Below are positions 3,578-49,234 of a stretch of DNA of 64,000 nt, in pieces. Numbering within the stretch: the first letter of the stretch is position 1; every line of letters starts with the position of its first letter. The stretch is from Escherichia phage a48: sequence record OQ067375.1; one strand, given 5' to 3'. Under the pieces are notes generated by a model. The model saw only the letters and a program-made list of their open reading frames with translations, was not told the DNA's origin and ran no database searches. A program made the position numbers and the translations under genes.

Positions 3578-3826
3578 TCAAATACAAGTAGTAATTACTC
3601 CAGTAGTGCTTACACAGGTATTACCTAATTGAACACCCAGTGTTCCATTAGTATTCATATGAAGATTATCATCAATTTTTGTTGATACTTTACCATTCAT
3701 GTGAATAACAGTATTAGATTCAATCACATTCTGAGTATCATTTTCAATATCAATAAATGGAACAGCTGCTAATGCAACTAAACACACTGCTAAGCAACCA
3801 TAAACAATTTTCATTTTATTCTCCAA
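3578..3826 (-). CDS. small secreted protein
   Basis: 82-aa ORF MENKMKIVYGCLAVCLVALAAVPF with signal peptide; preceded by an early promoter-leader cassette. Confidence 0.5.
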   Translation of the reverse strand: MENKMKIVYGCLAVCLVALAAVPFIDIENDTQNVIESNTVIHMNGKVSTKIDDNLHMNTNGTLGVQLGNTCVSTTGVITTCI

Positions 3827-3846
3827 ATCCGTATTAGTTGATAGTT

Positions 3847-3878
3847 GTATAGTACCACAGAGGAACAGTCTTGTAAAC
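3847..3878 (-). promoter_or_regulatory. T4-type early promoter
   Basis: Minus sense GTTTACA, 17-bp spacer, TGgTACTAT; drives ORF 3578..3826. Confidence 0.55.
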
Positions 3879-3960
3879 AGTTTTGTGAAAAATTTTTAGG
3901 GAATTCTAAAGGTCCAGAATCATCTGTTTTTCATAAGTATAGATTTATATTATTTGTATG

Positions 3961-16424: not shown

Positions 16425-16640
16425 TCAAGCATTCATCAGCTTAGCCGCTCCAAGAGCTGTATCTAGTGAATCAAATTGGTCAACATATTCAATCAATTCG
16501 CCGTAATTAGCATATAACCACCATTGGCTAAATTCATACTCAAGGATGAATCCGTTTCCTTCAATTTGAGTTAAACCAATGCCATTTGTATTTACTTCAT
16601 ATCCAGCAAGACGCAAATCGTTAATAAGAGCTTCGTTCAT
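16425..16640 (-). CDS. hypothetical protein
   Basis: 71-aa ORF. Confidence 0.4.
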   Translation of the reverse strand: MNEALINDLRLAGYEVNTNGIGLTQIEGNGFILEYEFSQWWLYANYGELIEYVDQFDSLDTALGAAKLMNA

Positions 16641-21385: not shown

Positions 21386-21425
21386 AATAAAACCCTTACC
21401 TTAAATAGATAAGGGTATTTATTAT

Positions 21426-21602
21426 TTAAGTATTGTAAAACATTCGATGCAATCGTTTATACTGTCGAATCATCTTTTTAGTAGGACGAGAATAGGTTCC
21501 TACGCAAGTGGTCATATGAGGGTCCGTAGAATGTCCTTTAATAAAAAGTTTCCAAACCTTACCGCCATTTAACTTTTCAGTATAAACCAATTCGGTTTTC
21601 AT
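21426..21602 (-). CDS. small chimeric ORF carrying a duplicated pin-like C-terminus
   Basis: 58-aa ORF MKTELVYTEKLNGG...MIRQYKRLHRMFYNT; last ~16 codons encoded by a near-exact copy of the 3' end of the upstream gene. Confidence 0.4.
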   Translation of the reverse strand: MKTELVYTEKLNGGKVWKLFIKGHSTDPHMTTCVGTYSRPTKKMIRQYKRLHRMFYNT

Positions 21603-21638
21603 TAAAATGTCCTGTCAGAAAAAGAATTTTGAGTTTTT

Positions 21639-22124
21639 TCAAGTATTGTAAAACATTTGATGCAATCGCTTATATTGCCGAATCATTTGGTCAGAAAAAG
21701 AAATTTGAGTTTCAAGCCATTCAATGTACTCTGCGGCAGCTTGCATTAAATTTCCTTCATAACCATCGTTATTTTCTTGTGCAGCTAATTTAGCTAATGC
21801 GTATGAAATACGTTCACCCTGAAATCCAGCTTTAGGTTTATGAATAACTTGATCAACTCGTTCTACGACCTCTTCAATTTCGCCATTTTCTACTGATTCA
21901 GTATTCCACAAGCACCAATACGTAATTGGCTTATCGTAGATGTTAATAATCTTTCCATCAGAAAGTTCAATTTCAATAATTCCAGTATCAGGTTCTATAT
22001 CATCTTCGCATTCTTTTGCAAGTTCACGAACTTTAAAGACAGTACCTGCACTAAGTTCCGGCCAGTAATTACACAGCCCTTTATCAGCACGATTAATTCT
22101 AAACCACTTATCTACTGCAATCAT
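21639..22124 (-). CDS. hypothetical protein at the T4 pin position (possible protease inhibitor Pin)
   Basis: 161 aa from internal start MIAVDKWF (ORF track gives 167 aa); identity inferred from position only. Confidence 0.5.
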   Translation of the reverse strand: MIAVDKWFRINRADKGLCNYWPELSAGTVFKVRELAKECEDDIEPDTGIIEIELSDGKIINIYDKPITYWCLWNTESVENGEIEEVVERVDQVIHKPKAGFQGERISYALAKLAAQENNDGYEGNLMQAAAEYIEWLETQISFSDQMIRQYKRLHQMFYNT

Positions 22125-22751: not shown

Positions 22752-22967
22752 TTACCCCAATTTAACCATACAATCGCCGTATTTCCACTTAGAAATAGAC
22801 TTTTCACCATTAGAATAATAAACTTCGAGTTTAGCACGATTATTTTTAATTTGAATAACCTTGGCTGTCATCAAAGTTCCATACCCATAATAAACTGCAA
22901 CTTCATCACCTACATATACCGCGCTTCCGCGGTAATCATGAATATAGTCAGTTCCTTCGAGCATCAT
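22752..22967 (-). CDS. hypothetical protein
   Basis: 71-aa ORF directly downstream of nrdC. Confidence 0.45.
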   Translation of the reverse strand: MMLEGTDYIHDYRGSAVYVGDEVAVYYGYGTLMTAKVIQIKNNRAKLEVYYSNGEKSISKWKYGDCMVKLG

Positions 22968-23227
22968 TTAAAATATTCTCGCAGTTGGTCAAATCCACCA
23001 ATATGACTTCCATCAGGAGCAAATACCTGGGGCATTGTCAAGCCGATTTGAGTATCACGACCTAGTTTAGTCAGAAGCTCAGCGATTTTCTCATCATCAA
23101 AAACACCTTTTTCCGGCATAATGTTGATAAATTCAAACGGCTGTTTCTTCACGGTCAAAAGACGTTTTGCATTATCGCAATACACACATTTATGAATGTT
23201 GCTATCATAACCATATACTTTAAACAT
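22964..23227 (-). CDS. nrdC: thioredoxin/glutaredoxin NrdC
   Basis: 87-aa ORF MFKVYGYDSNIHKCVYCDNAKRLL with CVYC active site, matches T4 NrdC. Confidence 0.88.
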   Translation of the reverse strand: MFKVYGYDSNIHKCVYCDNAKRLLTVKKQPFEFINIMPEKGVFDDEKIAELLTKLGRDTQIGLTMPQVFAPDGSHIGGFDQLREYFK

Positions 23228-23471: not shown

Positions 23472-23772
23472 TTTCTTCTCGGTCAAATCGGTGTTTACAA
23501 TGACGACATTTATAACGAAGATTACTAGTCTGCCAATGGACCAATTGCACCTGTTCAGTTCCACATTCAGGGCAATTAGGAACGTTTTTAGAAGCCCTTT
23601 CACGACGTTCAACCATGACCATTACAGAATCCCAATTAACAGGAGGGCTATAATCATCACAACCATGAATCTTTCCACGCATTTCCAGATCGTCTTCTTC
23701 ACCAGCCATAATAATTTTAATTACACTAGAATTACTTGAAGCTGCAATGTCTTCTAATAGACGATTTTTCAT
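23458..23772 (-). CDS. zinc-ribbon protein
   Basis: 104-aa ORF with CPECG...CRHCKH four-cysteine motif. Confidence 0.5.
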
Positions 23773-24695
23773 TTCAATACCTCAATAGCATTGCGTAAAC
23801 CATTTGCTTTGGCGGTTAAAGCCTTAAGAACTTTAGTATGCTCTTCAATTTGTTTTTCAACTTCAATCAAACGAGCATTGAGATATTCGCGTTCTTCTTT
23901 CATAGTATCATTCCCATGATTGGATTTTGGTGTAGGTTTAAATTCACTAGGGTCCTTTAATTTAATAACAAATTTAGTTTCAAACAGCGAAAGACCATAA
24001 TTCGTATTATCATCAAAGGATTTGACTACATCCATATCAGATAATAACACGCGTAAATTATAAGCCAAAGAACTAATAGTTTCATTGTGTTTATTAGCTT
24101 CGCGTGGTTTCATATACGGAAGATTTTTATATATCTCGTGCGGAGCACAAATGATAATTGACAATTCAAATTGCCCATTCTGGGACGATGGAGTGAATTT
24201 AGCCGTAACCCAGTCTTTTACATTCACATTAATAGTACGGTTATCACCATGACAAAACAGTCTACGAGAATGCTTAAAAAGCATATTCACGTTATTATTG
24301 AATTCGTGTGAAAATTCACTAGCAAATTTTTCTTTACTATCTTTAGAAAACCATTCTTCTAAATAAGTTCTTTTCACGTCGTTAATAATATTAAATGTAA
24401 CAACACTAGCATTTGATACATTAGTCTCAATGTAGCTTGGATACATAAATTTTTTAACATTATTAACAGCTATCACAGAAGATAGTAATCGGGAACGTTT
24501 GAACCACTCGAGCAAAGAACCAAGAGAATGTGAATACGCATTTTGTGTATCTTTACAAATATGGTTTTCCCATCCAATATAGTCTAAAAAATCACGAAGA
24601 ATATTATTGATTACTGCTCTGTGTCCTATCTGATAATTACGATGTTTAGTAATAAGACTGTCAAAATAATCAATATAATGTTTACGAGTTTTCAT
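23769..24695 (-). CDS. hypothetical protein with C-terminal coiled coil (tandem family member 1)
   Basis: 308-aa ORF MKTRKHYIDYF... ending in a ~40-aa heptad-rich helix. Confidence 0.6.
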   Translation of the reverse strand: MKTRKHYIDYFDSLITKHRNYQIGHRAVINNILRDFLDYIGWENHICKDTQNAYSHSLGSLLEWFKRSRLLSSVIAVNNVKKFMYPSYIETNVSNASVVTFNIINDVKRTYLEEWFSKDSKEKFASEFSHEFNNNVNMLFKHSRRLFCHGDNRTINVNVKDWVTAKFTPSSQNGQFELSIIICAPHEIYKNLPYMKPREANKHNETISSLAYNLRVLLSDMDVVKSFDDNTNYGLSLFETKFVIKLKDPSEFKPTPKSNHGNDTMKEEREYLNARLIEVEKQIEEHTKVLKALTAKANGLRNAIEVLK

Positions 24696-24747: not shown

Positions 24748-25745
24748 TTACTTAATTAACTGTAAAGCTTGTTCCAGACGATCAAGACGATTAACAGATT
24801 CTTCCCAAATCCTTTTAGCCTGCTCATATTCTTTCTGCGCTTTATTAGAAATTTCTAGAACTTCTTTATAAGCTTTTTCTAGTGCAATAACTTCTGGACG
24901 AATTTCTATCGGTTCAGGTGAATCATCAAGACATTCCATTAGTTCCTCAAGGGTAGTTTCTTCTTTAGGAGTATTCACAATTTCATCACATTTTTGTTGG
25001 TAAATTTCTTTATCAGTAGGTGAATAAGCACATTTCACTTCACGAAGGCTAATTACGAGTTTATATCCTTCCCAACCGCATATATTCTTAAAAGGATATG
25101 TATGAATATTTTCTACTGTTTCCATACAAAGTAATGCGGTCTCTAATTGACGAGTTATAGTGCTAGCAATTGAGAAAAATTTATTAATATTCTTTTGGTT
25201 AGTTTCTGGTGTAAAAAATCTGTAATTAATAAAAATAGCTACTTTGTTTTTATCAAGCTCATATTCTTCTGCTATAATCATATCATCAGCTAAGGGATGA
25301 ATTGTACGATAATCACCATAACATAATTTAGAAGCTGATTTTAGAATTTGCTTCGTAAAACTCCTAAATTCACTAACCCAACGACGAGTAAAAATATTCT
25401 CAGGGTCTTCTTTAGTATTAAGATGATAAGTATTAACATCACCGAACCAATTGTATCCTACTACATCTTTAGTTCGTTTAATTTCTTTCCCAAATTTACC
25501 AAGAATATCTTGATTAACTAAATATGAAAGAAGACGAGACCCTTTAAAGGTTTTCTTAATATCATCTTTATCCGTGCGGCTAGAAATTTCATGAGCTTCA
25601 TGAATAAATTTACTGGAAGAAACAATACTTACATCAATATTATTGAGCCATTGATAATAGAAATAACATCGTTCTGACTAGACACAGGTTTAACTTTATC
25701 ATCAATAACGCTATTGAATGATTTGATATATTCGTTACGAGTCAT
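24748..25745 (-). pseudogene. frameshift-interrupted gene with C-terminal coiled coil (tandem family member 2)
   Basis: ATG at 25745 with GAGGAG ribosome-binding site reads 35 codons to a stop at 25629-25631; a different frame is open from 25677 with no Met and runs into the 177-aa ORF 24748..25281. Confidence 0.5.
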
Positions 25746-25773
25746 AATAATCTCCTCAGTAGAAAGTAAGAAC

Positions 25774-25803
25774 ATTATACCACATCCTTGTGGCAAAGTA
25801 AAC
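25774..25803 (-). promoter_or_regulatory. T4-type early promoter
   Basis: Minus sense GTTTAC ... TGgTATAAT upstream of the frameshifted gene start at 25745. Confidence 0.5.
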
Positions 25804-26816
25804 TAGTTCAGTGCATTGTTCAGTTTAGAACGTTGCTTTATCAGATTTTGAACCCTTGACTGAGCTTGTTCTAACGCCTTTTCAGCTTCTAGCACTTCAT
25901 TGGTCGCTTTAACGAGTTCATCATCTACTGCCTTAAGAGACTTCTCAATCGCGTCAGCGTGCCATTTTTCAACAGGTTTAAGACTCGGATTTTCAATAGG
26001 AAGAAAATTCACTTTATTGAATTTCCATGCATCTTTATTACCTGAACTATACATCCAAAATTTAGGATCGTTTGATGAGTAATTAGATGAATTTAAGGTA
26101 TCTTGCACTTCTTGCTTTTTCTCTTGCGGGACTTCGTCCTTTCTCAAAAAATCGTATTTAAATGAAACGATCATATCAAGTTCATATGTTGTTGTATGTT
26201 CCCAATTTCGCTCAAAACGAGGTAAAATCTTAGATTGAACAGCAGCAACAACATCCATATACTTAAATGCTTCTGTCAACTGTGATTTAAGGCATTCGCA
26301 AATTGAAAGAGAATTTTTTGTATTAGGTTTAAAGCTAATTCGTGCAGTTCTATTATTTTCTTTTAACGGTCTTACTTCCATCTGAAGAGTATAACCATCA
26401 AATTTCAGATTCTTTAAGTTAATATCAGAGCCTTTTAATCGACTAGCAGTAGACAAAATTTGCTTTAATTGTTTACGGAACAGAGCAATAAATCTCCATT
26501 CAAGACGATAATGATTTGGATTAAAAAATCCAGTTGATAGATCAGTCTTACTTTGACCAACGCCTCGAACAAATAGAGGATTTTTATAATCAATAGTTTT
26601 ACAGAAATCGGTGAGCTGCTCGCGAGCAGTCATTTGTGTAATATACCCTGCTTTACTAAAATTACGCACCCATTCACTGCTATTCGTATACTTAAAGTGA
26701 TGAATAACACGATTAACTTTATCAGGGTCTAAATTATTTTCACACAAAAATGTCATAACATCACGAGTATAACTGGCATTACGAACCATATCTTCAATTT
26801 GAGAACGAGTTTTCAT
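25803..26816 (-). CDS. hypothetical protein with C-terminal coiled coil (tandem family member 3)
   Basis: 337-aa ORF MKTRSQIEDMVRN... with coiled-coil tail. Confidence 0.6.
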   Translation of the reverse strand: MKTRSQIEDMVRNASYTRDVMTFLCENNLDPDKVNRVIHHFKYTNSSEWVRNFSKAGYITQMTAREQLTDFCKTIDYKNPLFVRGVGQSKTDLSTGFFNPNHYRLEWRFIALFRKQLKQILSTASRLKGSDINLKNLKFDGYTLQMEVRPLKENNRTARISFKPNTKNSLSICECLKSQLTEAFKYMDVVAAVQSKILPRFERNWEHTTTYELDMIVSFKYDFLRKDEVPQEKKQEVQDTLNSSNYSSNDPKFWMYSSGNKDAWKFNKVNFLPIENPSLKPVEKWHADAIEKSLKAVDDELVKATNEVLEAEKALEQAQSRVQNLIKQRSKLNNALN

Positions 26817-28182: not shown

Positions 28183-28710
28183 TTATGCGAGTACCGTCTT
28201 TAACCGTTCTTCAAACTTCCGAAGAGTATTCTGGCGTTCAGCTCTTTGCTTTTTGTAAGTTTCAATACGCTCTGAAATGAGAGTGTATCGTTCATTTACT
28301 GATTCTTTCATAAAATCAGGAATTTCACGAGAAGCTTTAATCTCATCAAATTTATCAATAACAGCTTGCTCTTCAGCAATTAAGTTATCATACATTAAAA
28401 TATCTTTCTTGATAAACTCAATATCTTCTTGAGTTACACGAGATAATTTAGATGCTTTATCCTTTTTGTACTGTTCGTTAGTATCACGAGACCAGTGTAA
28501 TGTACGATTTTTATTCGTATTCTTGTAAATTTCTACAATACCGATCTCATCGATAATAACGATCCAATTCCAACGGGATTTGTAAATTTGTCCTCCGTCA
28601 ACTGTGATTTCACCTCCGATTGAGATGTCATTAAAGAACTTACTTTGTGCTTCAGATTTAAATTTACCATCGTTGTAATTTACCAAGTTGAAAATATCTT
28701 TAGCGTTCAT
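28183..28710 (-). CDS. hypothetical protein with C-terminal helical tail
   Basis: 175-aa ORF downstream of an early promoter-leader cassette. Confidence 0.55.
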   Translation of the reverse strand: MNAKDIFNLVNYNDGKFKSEAQSKFFNDISIGGEITVDGGQIYKSRWNWIVIIDEIGIVEIYKNTNKNRTLHWSRDTNEQYKKDKASKLSRVTQEDIEFIKKDILMYDNLIAEEQAVIDKFDEIKASREIPDFMKESVNERYTLISERIETYKKQRAERQNTLRKFEERLKTVLA

Positions 28711-28735
28711 TTTCTGTTCCTCCGTAGTTGATAGT

Positions 28736-28768
28736 TGTATAGTACCACAGAGGAACAGTCTTGTAAAC
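28736..28768 (-). promoter_or_regulatory. T4-type early promoter (repeated cassette)
   Basis: Same gtatagtaccacagaggaacagtcttgtaaac block as at 3847; drives ORF 28183..28710. Confidence 0.55.
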
Positions 28769-28770
28769 CA

Positions 28771-29076
28771 CTAAAAGAAACTTCTTTCACAATTTTTTCC
28801 ACTGAACCAAGCACTTACCACTTTCTTAGTCTCAGGAGCAGTGTTATCCATAAACCATTCAAAGGCAGCCTTTTTATGATTCTGGAGGGCTTCTCGGGCT
28901 TTAATCTGCTCACGGTCTATTAACACTAACATATGAGCCTTTCTTGTCACCATGGGCTTCTTATGATTTTTTGAATACTCCCAATCATTTGTCCATCGCA
29001 TTGTTGTTGCGAACTGAAATACTGCTTCTTTAATCTTAGTTTCGTAAATTTCACGAGCCTTTGAGTATAACATCAC
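28771..29076 (-). CDS. hypothetical protein
   Basis: 101-aa ORF. Confidence 0.45.
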   Translation of the reverse strand: MMLYSKAREIYETKIKEAVFQFATTMRWTNDWEYSKNHKKPMVTRKAHMLVLIDREQIKAREALQNHKKAAFEWFMDNTAPETKKVVSAWFSGKNCERSFF

Positions 29077-29174: not shown

Positions 29175-30155
29175 TTATTTCAGAAGAGTAACCTCAGCAA
29201 TTTCTTCCCAACCGTTTTTGTCGGTCATAATAAAGTCAGCAAGATAAAGAGCAGTACGCAGTGAAACATTGCGTAAACGATTAACATTAACTTTCATCCA
29301 TGATAATGCTTTATAAGTTTCTTCATCAGAAAGACCACGCTTTTGCATCATGTCGGTTGAAAGAATAACATCTTCAACCCTGACCATAATTTCTTCATTA
29401 GTGTGAACACCCAAATCCAAATAAACCGAGCGGGACACTAATGCTTGTAAATGTGGAGCAAGTTTAGTACCACGGTCTAATTCGCGGTCAATGTCAACGT
29501 TTGTGATAAAAACAATCGTTCCTTTAAATTCAAACTCACGCTCAATGCCTTTTTCTTCTAAGTAAGAAGACGCAGTGCTCCAGCAGACTTTACGGGTCTC
29601 TCCAGTGTCCAGAGCAGCTTTCAGAAGATTAAGAATGTCCATATCAGAGAAAACATCCACATCATCAATCAAAAGGACAGAATTCTCTTCACGATTATTC
29701 CAGAGCTGTTCATAAAGACCGATACCAGAGATTTTACCGTTAATGCTTTTATATTCAATGTATCCAATATCATTTGCTTTATTTAAAGCTTTATCTAAAG
29801 AATATGTTTTACCTATACCTGCCGCGCCAGAGATAATTAATGAACGAATATTTCCATTAATAATACCATTCGTCATCATTCCCATAACATTAAATCTTTT
29901 ATTAATGCGGGTTTTCATATCTTCATATGATTCTTTAACTTCTTCAACTTTTACACCATCATATGAAATGTCTGATTTGTAAACCCAAACACCGCGACGC
30001 TTACCGTCAATTTCAACAAAAACTTTACCATCTCCTTGTGCATCTACCGGAGCATTATCTGGGAACCATTCACCTAAGAGCTCAAAAGTTCCAGAGATTT
30101 CTTTACCGAAGTAGATACCCTTATTGATAGTTACAGTTTTCATTTTATTCTCCAA
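29175..30155 (-). CDS. P-loop ATPase (AAA-like)
   Basis: 326-aa ORF; Walker A GAAGIGKT, Walker B VLLIDDVD; leader and first codons MENKMK shared with ORF 3578..3826. Confidence 0.65.
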   Translation of the reverse strand: MENKMKTVTINKGIYFGKEISGTFELLGEWFPDNAPVDAQGDGKVFVEIDGKRRGVWVYKSDISYDGVKVEEVKESYEDMKTRINKRFNVMGMMTNGIINGNIRSLIISGAAGIGKTYSLDKALNKANDIGYIEYKSINGKISGIGLYEQLWNNREENSVLLIDDVDVFSDMDILNLLKAALDTGETRKVCWSTASSYLEEKGIEREFEFKGTIVFITNVDIDRELDRGTKLAPHLQALVSRSVYLDLGVHTNEEIMVRVEDVILSTDMMQKRGLSDEETYKALSWMKVNVNRLRNVSLRTALYLADFIMTDKNGWEEIAEVTLLK

Positions 30156-30175
30156 ATCCGTATCAGTTGATAGTT

Positions 30176-30207
30176 GTATAGTACCATAAAGCTTTATGCT
30201 TGTAAAC
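30176..30207 (-). promoter_or_regulatory. T4-type early promoter (repeated cassette)
   Basis: gtatagtacc ... gtaaac block; drives the P-loop ATPase gene. Confidence 0.55.
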
Positions 30208-30237
30208 AGTTTTGTGAAAAATTTTTGAAATAAAAAA

Positions 30238-32817: not shown

Positions 32818-32951
32818 AATTACATACTCCTTTGAATAATATCAATAATGTTGTTCACCAGATTATAAGTAAACATTGGGTAATTATATTGAATCATCAC
32901 ATACACAACAAACAAAACTTTCATTCTCTTCTCCTTGGCAATTGACAAGAT

Positions 32952-32982
32952 TACTATACCATAACCTTGCCAACTTGTAAAC
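32952..32982 (-). promoter_or_regulatory. T4-type early promoter
   Basis: Minus sense GTTTAC ... TGgTATAGT upstream of ORF 32260..32817. Confidence 0.45.
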
Positions 32983-32984
32983 CA

Positions 32985-33158
32985 TTAAATGACGTTTTCA
33001 ATAAAATTCTGAAGCTTTGTATGAGCATCAACCATGATTTTCAATTCTTCTTTAGCGAAAGCTGTACCTCTTTCACGAGAAGAACATTCATAGTCAGAAA
33101 CTGCATTAGCATATTCTTCAATTAGCTTCATTAAAAACATCTGCTTTTCAGTTTTCAT
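32985..33158 (-). CDS. hypothetical small protein
   Basis: 57-aa ORF MKTEKQMFLMKLIEEYANAV... translated by hand. Confidence 0.3.
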   Translation of the reverse strand: MKTEKQMFLMKLIEEYANAVSDYECSSRERGTAFAKEELKIMVDAHTKLQNFIENVI

Positions 33159-33563: not shown

Positions 33564-33715
33564 GCCATGTGAGTTGCAACTTCATCACACATATTATAAC
33601 GTTTCTTAAGAAGTTCTACAAGTTCTTCACTAGTAACTTCATCCATGTCGACGAAAAAATCACCATTAATGATGACGTAGATATTTCCTTCTTGATTGAG
33701 TGCTTCAATTTTCAT
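33527..33715 (-). CDS. hypothetical small acidic protein
   Basis: 62 aa from internal start [11 protein letters not shown], which lies downstream of the predicted transcription start of the early promoter at 33732..33764. Confidence 0.4.
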
Positions 33716-33731
33716 GATGTTCTCCTCTTTA

Positions 33732-33764
33732 TCCGATAGTTGTATAGTACCACAGCTCAAACGG
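33732..33764 (-). promoter_or_regulatory. T4-type early promoter (repeated cassette)
   Basis: gtatagtacc ... gtaaac block upstream of ORF 33527..33715. Confidence 0.5.
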
Positions 33765-33788
33765 AAAGTAAACCGGTAAAATGAAAAA

Positions 33789-38289: not shown

Positions 38290-38549
38290 ATACTGGCTTC
38301 TTTGAGTTTCGTTTTAGCAATAGTTAACTGATCGAGGCTTTCAGCATAATTCTTCGCGAATTCACAGTCTTCACAATTATCTAGTGCTTCCCAGAATTCA
38401 TCGTATAAAGCGTCAAAGATAAGTCCTAAACGAACTTCAGCGTCTTTGATTGCATTCACTTTACCGATTTTCTCTTCAGTATGTGGTTTATAACCTTTAA
38501 TGTCTTCAATCATATTTGACTTCCTCGCCAGTACCCAAATCATATTCAA
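38247..38549 (-). CDS. small acidic protein, candidate cyclic-nucleotide sponge (Vs.4/Acb2 position)
   Basis: 100-aa ORF (88 aa from MIEDIKGY); assignment is positional only, in the regB-denV block where T4 has vs.4. Confidence 0.4.
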
Positions 38550-38727
38550 CTAAACGAATAGGTTCATGAATGCCATATCCCTGAACAGAAATTTCTGTCG
38601 TAGGATAAATTCCATCAATATCACCCATATTCCACGCTTCATTAAATTGCTGTTCACCTGAATTACTAAACCACTCGGCGAAAGCATTTAACACATCTTC
38701 AGAACCTTCAATAATTATCTTTGCCAT
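38506..38727 (-). CDS. hypothetical small acidic protein
   Basis: 73-aa ORF. Confidence 0.4.
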   Translation of the reverse strand: MAKIIIEGSEDVLNAFAEWFSNSGEQQFNEAWNMGDIDGIYPTTEISVQGYGIHEPIRLVEYDLGTGEEVKYD

Positions 38728-40115: not shown

Positions 40116-40589
40116 TTATTTGAATGATTTGACGTACTGAATAGAGCCTTTGCTATTCACGAAAGCGATTTTACCATTTTTATTATACATGGTAGCAGTA
40201 CGCTGATAACCATAAGTTTGTTTACCAGATTGATAACCAACTAATGCAAAATTATCTTCGCCCATTTTATTCTGTTTGGCGCGGATACGTTCATGACCGT
40301 GTGCCATAAGAACCTTAGCGTCGCCAGTTGCAATGGATCTACGAGTTTTTTCATCTTCAACCGTATTAACAAAGTCGTCAAATGAATCAAATTTAGCATG
40401 AGATTTATTATACAGTTTTCCATCTACTGCATAATTATATCCCTGTACATCCATCTCAACTTCTGTACCATCATCCAATACAGCAGTGATTTTTTGACCT
40501 TTTTTAAATTTCAAAAGATCAGTAAAAGATTCAGCGATAATTTGAGAATTAATAGCTGCTTCAGTAATAAATTCTTGATATGTTTTCAT
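40116..40589 (-). CDS. internal-protein-like protein with capsid targeting sequence
   Basis: 157-aa ORF starting MKTYQEFITEA (T4 internal-protein targeting signal with protease site after TE); late promoter motif upstream. Confidence 0.6.
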   Translation of the reverse strand: MKTYQEFITEAAINSQIIAESFTDLLKFKKGQKITAVLDDGTEVEMDVQGYNYAVDGKLYNKSHAKFDSFDDFVNTVEDEKTRRSIATGDAKVLMAHGHERIRAKQNKMGEDNFALVGYQSGKQTYGYQRTATMYNKNGKIAFVNSKGSIQYVKSFK

Positions 40590-40598
40590 GTGTTTCCT

Positions 40599-44764: not shown

Positions 44765-45040
44765 TTATTTCATATTATTGAAATATTCTTCTGCGATTTC
44801 GTCGTTATCATGGTAAACTTTAGAAGACAGTTTAACATAACCTTCAGCAGTGAACATGTTAATCACAACCTTTACAGTATACCACTGACCATCTTCATTA
44901 CCCATTACTGCGTAAGTTTCAAACATCGGATGGTCAGGACCGATAACTTTAATATCATTCACCGTACGACCGAAATCTTCTGAAACACATTTCATAAAGA
45001 AGTTGAACAGTTCGCCGTAATTATCCATTTCGTTCTCCAA
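44765..45040 (-). CDS. hypothetical protein
   Basis: 91-aa ORF MENEMD... downstream of an early promoter-leader cassette. Confidence 0.5.
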   Translation of the reverse strand: MENEMDNYGELFNFFMKCVSEDFGRTVNDIKVIGPDHPMFETYAVMGNEDGQWYTVKVVINMFTAEGYVKLSSKVYHDNDEIAEEYFNNMK

Positions 45041-45070
45041 GTTGTTTTCTGTATCAGTAGTTGATAGTTG

Positions 45071-45102
45071 TATAGTACCATGGAAGAACAGGGATGTAAA
45101 CA
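45071..45102 (-). promoter_or_regulatory. T4-type early promoter (repeated cassette)
   Basis: gtatagtacc ... gtaaac block; drives ORF 44765..45040. Confidence 0.55.
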
Positions 45103-45210
45103 GTTTTGTGAAAAAATTTTTAAAAAATTTTAGGGAATTCTAGGGCAGGGAGGGGAAATCAAAGGATAGGATAATATATTATAAAGGGTATAAACTAAAT
45201 GATGCCTAGA

Positions 45211-48606: not shown

Positions 48607-48840
48607 TTATTTTTTACGAAAAATTGATTTATTTTCTGCTGCCCATTTTTCAATAACTGCAGCAGGACCAGTAACAACAATTTTATCACCGTAATCTTCT
48701 GCGGCGAGTTGACCGAAATTATCTAATGCATCACGAAGAACTCCATGAGGCATTTCACCCATTTTATCTTTCTTGCCAGTGTAAATAAACTCAACTTTTA
48801 CATCAGCAGTTTCAGCAATAAATTCTTGGTAAGTTTTCAT
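48607..48840 (-). CDS. internal-protein-like protein with capsid targeting sequence
   Basis: 77 aa from MKTYQEFIAETADVKVEF (ORF track gives 81 aa with upstream Met); early promoter upstream. Confidence 0.6.
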   Translation of the reverse strand: MKTYQEFIAETADVKVEFIYTGKKDKMGEMPHGVLRDALDNFGQLAAEDYGDKIVVTGPAAVIEKWAAENKSIFRKK

Positions 48841-48872
48841 TTTGATTTCCATTTGGTTTTGTTTTGATAGGG

Positions 48873-48904
48873 TAATAGTATCACAACTAAAACCCTATGT
48901 AAAC
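48873..48904 (-). promoter_or_regulatory. T4-type early promoter
   Basis: taatagtatcac ... gtaaacaactttgtgaaattattttaaatc upstream of the internal-protein-like gene 48607..48840. Confidence 0.5.
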
Positions 48905-48916
48905 AACTTTGTGAAA

Positions 48917-49174
48917 TTATTTTAAATCTTCTAATCGTTTCTTCATCTTAGAACCATTTTTAGCAATTTCTCCTGCATCGGAGCATAATGCTAAAAGTGC
49001 TTTAACTTTAGTTTGGTCTCCTTTAAAAGATGAAGGATCGACCGCAGCAGCAAGTTCTTTAATACGAGAGAAAAGACGCTCAGCTTCAGCTAAAGCCATT
49101 CCAAGCTTTACTTCCATACCGTGGGAAGATTCAGTGATAGTAGTTTTTGTAGCAAACTCTTTGAAAGTTTTCAT
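48917..49174 (-). CDS. internal-protein-like protein with capsid targeting sequence
   Basis: 85-aa ORF MKTFKEFATKTTITE...; occupies the ipI position upstream of 57B. Confidence 0.55.
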   Translation of the reverse strand: MKTFKEFATKTTITESSHGMEVKLGMALAEAERLFSRIKELAAAVDPSSFKGDQTKVKALLALCSDAGEIAKNGSKMKKRLEDLK

Positions 49175-49203
49175 TTTTATTTTCCTAATTAATTTTGATG
49201 AGG

Positions 49204-49234
49204 TAATAGTATCACTACCTCATCAGTATGTAAA
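49204..49234 (-). promoter_or_regulatory. T4-type early promoter
   Basis: taatagtatcac ... gtaaacaactttgtgaaattattttaaatc upstream of the internal-protein-like gene 48917..49174. Confidence 0.5.

What the first reader, a model, noticed from the sequence alone, without database searches (positions are those of the whole stretch)
24748..25745. One family member is split by a frameshift
A good start (ATG at 25745 with a GAGGAG ribosome-binding site and a canonical early promoter at 25774..25803) opens a frame that stops after 35 codons (stop at 25629-25631). A second frame is open from 25677, contains no Met for ~130 codons, and runs straight into the 177-aa ORF the track reports at 24748..25281. 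Joined, the two frames give a ~345-aa protein with the same layout as its neighbours. This is either a decaying paralogue, a sequencing indel, or a programmed frameshift.
Basis: seen in the sequence. Interest (0 to 1): 0.5.

Follow-up and report, generated by a model that had tools for sequence, protein, structure and literature searches.

The report
Frameshifted nrdC.4 gene in T4-like phage
An accessory early gene (nrdC.4) of this T4-like phage is broken by loss of four bases at a short tandem repeat, which is an ordinary recent knockout (or assembly slip) and not a programmed frameshift.

Summary
The split is real in the sequence. ATG 25745 opens 38 codons that end at TAA 25631-25629. The -1 frame is open for 309 codons, from 25677 to the stop at 24750-24748. 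The two frames match one family profile (phrog_1435 = T4 NrdC.3/NrdC.4) end to end, at positions 1-32 and 33-334. The locus is the ortholog of T4 nrdC.4, which is 333 aa when intact.

The only indel against 17 or more relatives is a 4-nt deletion: ATT ATC AAT CAA TGG has become ATT ATC AAT GG, one unit of an ATCA.ATCA repeat. I did not find this allele in about 466 phage records, IMG/VR, metagenomes or 185,000 genomes.

Promoter, ribosome-binding site and the downstream frame are untouched, and there are only two private substitutions, so the lesion is recent. There is no slippery heptamer, homopolymer or stimulatory structure, and nearly all orthologs are single ORFs, so programmed frameshifting is rejected.

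Other genomes carry different lesions in the same gene: phage T2 (seven identical records), an IMG/VR genome and a metagenome scaffold. The nrdC.1-6 block is deletable in T4.

Most likely this is a genuine slippage knockout of a dispensable gene. An assembly error cannot be excluded without reads. Interest is low.

The parts
25774..25803 (-). Early-type promoter of nrdC.4 (GTTTAC -35 at 25803-25798; TG-extended TATAAT -10 at 25779-25774)
   Evidence: Read directly. The consensus scan gives 10 of 12 matches with TG. The -35 and -10 hexamers are identical in SG1, T6, T4 and IMG/VR relatives; one spacer-adjacent base varies. Function is inferred from the consensus, not shown.
25752..25757 (-). 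Ribosome-binding site GAGGAG, 6 nt upstream of ATG 25745
   Evidence: Invariant in the alignments.
25629..25745 (-). Fragment 1: 38 codons plus TAA. Codons 1-32 (25745-25650) are the native NrdC.4 N-terminus. Codons 33-38 (GSIILM) are out-of-frame read-through.
   Evidence: Translation. phrog_1435 profile positions 1-32, E 3e-10.
25650..25656 (-). Deletion junction. Relatives read ATT ATC AAT CAA TGG (tandem ATCA ATCA); the window reads ATT ATC AAT GG. One 4-nt unit is lost; its exact position is ambiguous within the repeat.
   Evidence: Alignments. It is the only indel inside the gene. Every listed hit has the 4 extra bases. The junction has 0 hits in IMG/VR, metagenome and genome collections, while the intact-allele control has 3 hits.
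24748..25677 (-). Fragment 2: -1 frame, open for 309 codons. From CAA 25653-25651 (Gln33) onward it is the native NrdC.4 sequence, down to TAA 24750-24748.
   Evidence: Translation. phrog_1435 positions 33-334, E 1.6e-147. The reconstructed protein is 88-92% identical to the intact 332-343 aa homologs ranked 1-30.
24748..25281 (-). Mechanical 177-aa ORF (first ATG in fragment 2). It is the C-terminal half of NrdC.4 (profile 158-334) and has no Shine-Dalgarno sequence upstream.
   Evidence: The upstream sequence cccttagctgatgatATG is read. This exact product is not on record in the protein collection.
23769..24695 (-). nrdC.3, the intact paralogue downstream (308 aa)
   Evidence: phrog_1435 over its full length, E 2e-101. 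PF26897. Exact protein found in another phage genome record, KM607001. BLASTP against an NrdC.4 homolog gives 24% over 171 aa.
25803..26816 (-). nrdC.5 (DUF7235, 337 aa), the intact neighbour upstream. Its T4 ortholog counteracts the Dsr1 defence.
   Evidence: Pfam PF23882, E 8e-126. PMC9391042. It carries a 9-nt repeat-unit deletion at its 3' end that none of 19 relatives shares.

Best explanation
This is the ortholog of T4 nrdC.4, an early, non-essential accessory gene of unknown function and a paralogue of nrdC.3. It has been knocked out in this phage lineage by loss of one unit of a tandem ATCA.ATCA repeat, most likely through replication slippage. Transcription and initiation signals are intact. 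Ribosomes should therefore start at ATG 25745, read 32 native codons and 6 aberrant ones, and terminate at TAA 25631-25629. The remaining 301 native codons lie in the -1 frame with no start codon or ribosome-binding site, so they should not be made. The event is recent: nothing else in the gene has decayed. It is tolerated because the gene is dispensable on the phage's current host.

Shown here: the lesion, its absence from every other sequence searched, the intact flanking signals, and the lack of recoding signals. Inferred: that it is a true mutation rather than an assembly error, that no product is made from fragment 2, and that the loss is neutral or host-dependent.
For: - Orthology and synteny: nrdC.5 - nrdC.4 - nrdC.3 - nrdC.2 - nrdC.1 - nrdC, as in T4, T6 and SG1.
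- A single 4-nt deletion at a tandem repeat is the only indel against 17 relatives.
- The profile match is split exactly at the junction, 1-32 and 33-334.
- The allele was found nowhere else. All listed hits among 466 phage records carry the 4 bases. There are 0 exact hits in IMG/VR, metagenome and genome collections, and the positive control works.
- Recency: there are 4 private amino-acid states against 34 cluster representatives, within the range seen for intact homologs. Only 2 private substitutions occur in the first 260 nt, and identity to relatives is 0-1 differences per 100 nt over the last 700 nt.
- Assembly quality: no other large gene in 64 kb is split relative to T4. The three small frame differences against T4 are natural alleles present in other assemblies.
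- The lesion is not in a homopolymer.
- A second private repeat-unit loss (9 nt, in frame) lies about 160 nt upstream, which fits slippage in this lineage.
- Dispensability and recurrence: T2 carries -1 and -2 nt lesions in seven identical records. An IMG/VR genome has +1 T, and a metagenome scaffold has +TA. The nrdC.1-6 block is deletable in T4 (PMC9825161).
Against: No reads are available, so the deletion cannot be separated from a consensus or assembly error. Contraction of short tandem repeats, here seen twice within about 160 nt, is also an error mode of some long-read consensus pipelines. No genome more than 99% identical to this one was found to corroborate the allele. Intact nrdC.4 is kept in roughly 98% of relatives: 549 of 553 records give one full-length match. 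The gene is therefore normally under selection, which makes a knockout somewhat unexpected in a wild phage.
Confidence: 0.65

Rival explanations
1. Sequencing or assembly artefact: the phage really has ATCAATCAATGG and an intact 333-aa NrdC.4, and the consensus dropped one repeat unit.
For: The allele was seen in no other record or collection. Everything else about the gene looks functional. A second private repeat contraction lies about 160 nt upstream and could reflect one local consensus problem. T-even DNA carries glucosyl-hydroxymethylcytosine, which degrades some base-callers (established knowledge).
Against: The lesion is not a homopolymer error. No other large gene in 64 kb is frameshifted relative to T4. 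The other small frame differences are corroborated by independent assemblies. The 9-nt contraction is in frame and harmless, as expected for real variation.
Confidence: 0.28
2. Programmed -1 ribosomal frameshift (or another recoding event) that fuses the two frames into a full-length protein.
For: The two frames overlap by 49 nt (25677-25629), and a -1 shift within that zone would rejoin them. Promoter and ribosome-binding site are intact.
Against: The overlap has no X XXY YYZ heptamer, no in-frame X XXY tetramer, no homopolymer run and no internal Shine-Dalgarno sequence. The downstream 91 nt fold no better than shuffles, z = -0.01. Orthologs are single ORFs in nearly all records. The two-frame state arises from a deletion found in no other sequence, so nothing is conserved that selection could have shaped.
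Confidence: 0.02
3. An old, decaying pseudogene (long-term relaxed selection on a redundant paralogue).
For: nrdC.3 is a paralogue that might compensate. T2 shows a two-lesion pseudogene of the same gene.
Against: There is only one lesion. A 309-codon frame is still open, with chance probability about 3e-11. The count of private amino-acid changes (4) is within the range for intact homologs, and there are only 2 private nucleotide substitutions. Promoter and ribosome-binding site are unchanged.
Confidence: 0.03
4. Two separately functional genes: a 38-aa peptide plus a C-terminal protein, for example the 177-aa ORF from ATG 25281.
For: Gene callers annotate such halves as separate ORFs in T2, in an IMG/VR genome (L012) and in a metagenome scaffold.
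Against: There is no Shine-Dalgarno sequence before ATG 25281, and no ATG, GTG or TTG in the 132 codons before it. The 177-aa piece begins in the middle of the predicted alpha/beta domain, at residue 157 of 333. The break points differ in every affected genome, so there is no conserved split architecture.
Confidence: 0.02

Closest known systems
T4 NrdC.4 (Y04P, 'uncharacterized 39.0 kDa protein in nrdC-mobD intergenic region'; Pfam PF26897 Phage_T4_Y04OP; phrog_1435)
   Same: Same position between nrdC.5 and nrdC.3, same promoter and ribosome-binding site, and about 93% nucleotide identity to T4. The profile match is full length when the two frames are joined.
   Different: The gene is interrupted by a 4-nt deletion after codon 32, so the 333-aa product cannot be made by normal translation.
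nrdC.4 pseudogene of phage T2 (LC348380, AP018813, PV958097, PV648363/4, SV76)
   Same: The same gene is inactivated by small slippage-type indels in an otherwise normal T-even genome, and is annotated as two hypothetical ORFs.
   Different: The lesions are different and independent: -1 nt at gene position 37 and -2 nt near position 512. T2 has two lesions and is confirmed by several independent sequencings. The window has one lesion and is unconfirmed.
Other nrdC.4 frameshifts: IMGVR_UViG_2974742932 (the same 158-aa fragment length as one from phage vB_EcoM_G8) and ENA scaffold YOKO23-1 scaffold_31
   Same: Single small indels at short repeats (+1 T in a T6 run; +TA) split the same gene.
   Different: The positions differ. 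One is a homopolymer change and so more likely to be a sequencing error.
Programmed -1 frameshifting (for example dnaX, or phage tail chaperone G/GT)
   Same: Two overlapping frames that a -1 shift would join.
   Different: There is no slippery heptamer, no stimulator and no conservation. It is not a member of this class.
T4 NrdC.5, the anti-Dsr1 counter-defence gene (PMC9391042)
   Same: It is the adjacent early gene, of similar size with a C-terminal coiled coil, in the same dispensable nrdC.1-6 block.
   Different: It belongs to a different family (DUF7235, phrog_2351). The only sequence similarity is in the coiled coil. No function has been shown for NrdC.4.

Membership tests
NrdC.3/NrdC.4 family (phrog_1435; Pfam PF26897 Phage_T4_Y04OP) | Significant match over the whole family profile | tested here: met
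   Frame 0 residues 1-32 match profile 1-32 (E 3e-10). Frame -1 residues 9-309 match profile 33-334 (E 1.6e-147). Homologs carry PF26897.
NrdC.3/NrdC.4 family (phrog_1435; Pfam PF26897 Phage_T4_Y04OP) | Orthologous position: between nrdC.5 (DUF7235) and nrdC.3, upstream of nrdC glutaredoxin | tested here: met
   Window ORF order compared with T6, SG1 and T4 annotation.
NrdC.3/NrdC.4 family (phrog_1435; Pfam PF26897 Phage_T4_Y04OP) | Single uninterrupted ORF of about 330-343 aa | tested here: not met
   Stop after 38 codons, with the rest in the -1 frame. Most homolog clusters are 321-343 aa. The locus is a disrupted member, a pseudogene, not a functional one.
Programmed -1 ribosomal frameshift site | Slippery heptamer X XXY YYZ (or a homopolymer for transcriptional slippage) inside the frame overlap | tested here: not met
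   None in 25677-25629. There are no runs of 5 or more A or T and no Shine-Dalgarno-like stimulator.
Programmed -1 ribosomal frameshift site | Downstream stimulatory RNA structure | tested here: not met
   The 91 nt downstream have MFE -14.3 kcal/mol against a shuffle mean of -14.3, z = -0.01. Pseudoknots are not modelled by this tool.
Programmed -1 ribosomal frameshift site | Two-frame arrangement conserved among orthologs | tested here: not met
   549 of 553 phage records give one full-length match. All listed hits carry the 4 bases. Rare splits elsewhere are at different positions.
Recent pseudogene caused by a slippage indel | Frame-disrupting lesion at a short tandem repeat, absent from relatives | tested here: met
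   ATCA.ATCA reduced to ATCA. The junction is absent from four collections.
Recent pseudogene caused by a slippage indel | The lesion exists in the phage DNA, not only in the assembly | not testable with these tools
   No reads or second assembly of this genome were found. Exact look-ups of the 177-aa ORF and of nrdC.5 found nothing.
Anti-defence (counter-defence) gene | Demonstrated inhibition of a host defence system | not tested

The most novel reading that the evidence does not exclude
The repeated, independent inactivation of nrdC.4 may not be neutral. It is seen in this phage, T2, an IMG/VR genome and a metagenome phage, each with a different lesion. NrdC.4 could be a host-range or counter-defence factor, like its neighbour NrdC.5, that is costly on some hosts or is itself sensed by a bacterial defence system. 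Knockouts would then be selected as escape mutations.
Probability: 0.1. Interest if true: 0.5.

Novelty: new member of a known kind. Interest (0 to 1): 0.12.

Why it matters
It matters mainly for annotation. The 38-codon ORF and the 177-aa ORF should be annotated as one disrupted nrdC.4 pseudogene, not as two hypothetical genes, and not as a recoding site.

It also adds a fourth independent example of loss of nrdC.4 in T-even phages. That marks the gene as conditionally dispensable within the nrdC.1-6 accessory block, which contains a known anti-Dsr1 gene. If the phage stock is available, it is a natural nrdC.4 null that could be plated on defence-system panels to look for a function.

Tried and rejected
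- Gene conversion or an ectopic donor for the region around the deletion: blastn-short of 141 nt against the whole window found only 9-16 nt chance matches.
- An apparent cluster of six private substitutions around the deletion dissolved when more relatives were added. G2133 and RB3 share AACGAT, and OES_C-2 shares the T that creates the TAA stop. Only two private changes remain.
- Looking for the same genome or allele elsewhere: exact protein look-ups for the 177-aa ORF and nrdC.5 found nothing. A Logan contig sharing a rare 55.1 allele (L031) proved to be only 89-96% identical and has intact nrdC.4.
- Literature: 'nrdC.4' occurs in one paper only, a genome announcement with nothing functional.
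- Paralogy with nrdC.5 and nrdC.6 by BLASTP: only coiled-coil similarity, or none. Fold-level similarity to NrdC.6 of phage JS10 does exist.

Full report
**What is there.** All features below are on the minus strand.
- A TG-extended early-type promoter (GTTTAC 25803-25798, TATAAT 25779-25774) and a GAGGAG ribosome-binding site (25757-25752) precede ATG 25745.
- That frame runs 38 codons (MTRNEYIKSFNSVIDDKVKPVSSQNDVISIINGSIILM) to TAA 25631-25629.
- The -1 frame is open from 25677 to TAA 24750-24748. That is 309 codons, with no ATG, GTG or TTG before ATG 25281. The 177-aa ORF that a mechanical ORF list reports is therefore only its tail.
- An open frame of that length has a chance probability of about 3e-11 at this composition. 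Only 18 of 8529 stop-to-stop stretches in the window reach it.

**Identity.**
- The window is a Tequatrovirus. nrdC glutaredoxin lies at 22964-23227, and the baseplate genes are mostly 98-99% identical to T4 at protein level.
- The split locus lies between DUF7235 (nrdC.5) and a 308-aa paralogue (nrdC.3). This is exactly where T4, T6 and SG1 have nrdC.4, a single 1002-nt gene encoding 333 aa.
- The two window frames match phrog_1435, the NrdC.3/NrdC.4 family, at profile positions 1-32 and 33-334. They abut with no gap.
- Other databases place these proteins in Pfam PF26897, Phage_T4_Y04OP.

**The lesion.**
- Alignment with 17 relatives shows one indel inside the gene. Relatives read ...TCT ATT ATC AAT CAA TGG CTC... 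and the window reads ...TCT ATT ATC AAT GGC TC....
- One unit of a tandem ATCA.ATCA repeat has been lost at 25650-25656. Four bases put the rest of the gene in the -1 frame.
- The lesion is not in a homopolymer.
- Every listed hit among 466 phage records with this segment has the four extra bases, and none exceeds 92% identity to the window over the segment.
- A 23-nt junction pattern has no exact match in IMG/VR, the metagenome collection or 185,579 reference genomes. The intact-allele pattern is found, which serves as a positive control.

**Age.**
- The promoter hexamers and the ribosome-binding site are identical to those of relatives.
- The reconstructed protein has four amino-acid states not seen in 34 cluster representatives. 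Intact homologs have 0-11.
- At nucleotide level, the last 700 nt differ from some relative by 0-1 positions per 100 nt.
- An apparent cluster of private changes near the deletion shrank to two (gene nt 155 and 177) once more relatives were added.
- A long-decaying pseudogene is therefore excluded. The lesion is recent, or it is not real.

**Recoding.**
- A -1 shift between 25677 and 25629 would rejoin the frames.
- That zone contains no X XXY YYZ heptamer, no in-frame X XXY tetramer, no A or T run and no internal Shine-Dalgarno sequence.
- The downstream RNA folds no better than shuffles, z = -0.01.
- Orthologs are single ORFs: 549 of 553 records give one full-length tblastn match, and most protein clusters are 321-343 aa.
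- A two-frame state created by a deletion found in no other sequence cannot be a conserved recoding device. I reject that reading.

**Real mutation or artefact.** This cannot be settled without reads.
- For a real mutation: no other large gene in the 64 kb is frameshifted relative to T4.
- For a real mutation: the three small frame differences against T4 (vs.5, 55.1 C-terminus, vs.8 N-terminus) are natural alleles found in independent assemblies. For vs.5, T4 appears to be the odd one out.
- For a real mutation: tandem-repeat unit loss is the classic slippage signature.
- Ambiguous: about 160 nt upstream, nrdC.5 has lost one copy of a 9-nt tandem unit (NALNALN to NALN), unlike all 19 relatives examined. 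This fits slippage-prone replication in this lineage, and it equally fits a local consensus problem.
- I put about 0.65 on a genuine mutation and about 0.28 on an artefact.

**Context.** nrdC.4 disruption is not unprecedented.
- Phage T2 carries -1 nt (gene position 37) and -2 nt (near position 512) in seven identical records.
- An IMG/VR genome has an extra T in a T6 run. A 158-aa fragment of the same length is reported for phage vB_EcoM_G8.
- A 171-kb metagenome scaffold has a TA duplication.
- All of these lesions differ from the window's.
- The nrdC.1-6 block can be deleted from T4 (PMC9825161).
- The neighbouring nrdC.5 is a counter-defence gene against Dsr1 and is needed only on some hosts (PMC9391042).
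- Loss of nrdC.4 is therefore plausible for a conditionally dispensable accessory gene.

**Function of the intact protein.** It remains unknown.
- A confident model (pLDDT 82) shows an N-terminal helical region, an alpha/beta domain and a long C-terminal helix.
- Foldseek against viral models links it to NrdC.3-type proteins, to NrdC.6 of JS10, and to many 300-370-aa proteins of other Straboviridae.

**Verdict.** This is an ordinary, recent, single-lesion knockout, or an assembly slip, of a known accessory gene. It should be annotated as a disrupted nrdC.4. Interest is low.

Noticed in passing
window 25803-25820 (- strand), 3' end of nrdC.5: The window has one copy of a 9-nt tandem unit (AATGCACTR) where all 19 relatives examined have two. 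The C-terminus is ...NNALN* instead of ...NNALNALN*. This is a second repeat-unit contraction not seen in any relative, in frame, about 160 nt upstream of the nrdC.4 deletion.
   Followed up: partly
window 38506-38727 (- strand), vs.5: The window encodes a 73-aa Vs.5, and the exact protein is indexed in 77 blocks of the public contig collection. The T4 reference has one base fewer (TTTCG-CGAG against TTTCGCCGAG) and a 58-aa annotated product. The T4 reference allele therefore looks like the frameshifted one.
   Followed up: partly
L016 (PV648364.1) 1501-2499, and six further records (five T2, one SV76): Phage T2 carries an nrdC.4 pseudogene with two lesions (-1 nt and -2 nt, about 475 nt apart). 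It is identical in seven records and annotated as two hypothetical proteins. MH751506 differs by 2 nt in length.
   Followed up: yes
window 3804-3897, 28694-28787, 30133-30226, 45027-45120, 48830-48923 (also 32920-32990, 33711-33781): A 70-94-nt module is repeated 5-7 times at 62-89% identity. Read on the minus strand it contains GTTTAC, then TATAC-type -10 sequence, then a 5' leader, a ribosome-binding site and ATG. These look like shared early-promoter and leader cassettes, and they are potential substrates for recombination or deletion.
   Followed up: no
window 40554-40597, 48805-48848, 49139-49182 (- strand), and 49109-49219: Three gene starts share a 44-nt segment. The 48805-48848 copy encodes MKTYQEFIAE..., and the others differ at several positions. 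From my own knowledge this resembles the capsid-targeting sequence of T4 internal proteins. The ipI-equivalent region matches T4 IPI over only 41 residues, which suggests a variant set of internal proteins.
   Followed up: no
window 21422-21473 and 21635-21686: A 52-nt direct repeat (88% identity) with copies spaced 213 nt apart, in the pin/49.x region. Not examined.
   Followed up: no
window 16425-16640 (- strand), 55.1: The C-terminus differs from T4 because of a 1-nt difference (GATGAA-TGC against GATGAAGTGC). The exact 71-aa protein was found in only one other public contig, Logan DRR848666, a phage about 96% identical over that region.
   Followed up: partly
model of P0002 (intact NrdC.4 homolog) against BFVD: Fold-level relatives include NrdC.3-type proteins, NrdC.6 of JS10, and pairs of adjacent 300-330-aa proteins in Acinetobacter phage Acj61. 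This suggests a broad family of tandemly duplicated early genes across Straboviridae, with unknown function.
   Followed up: partly
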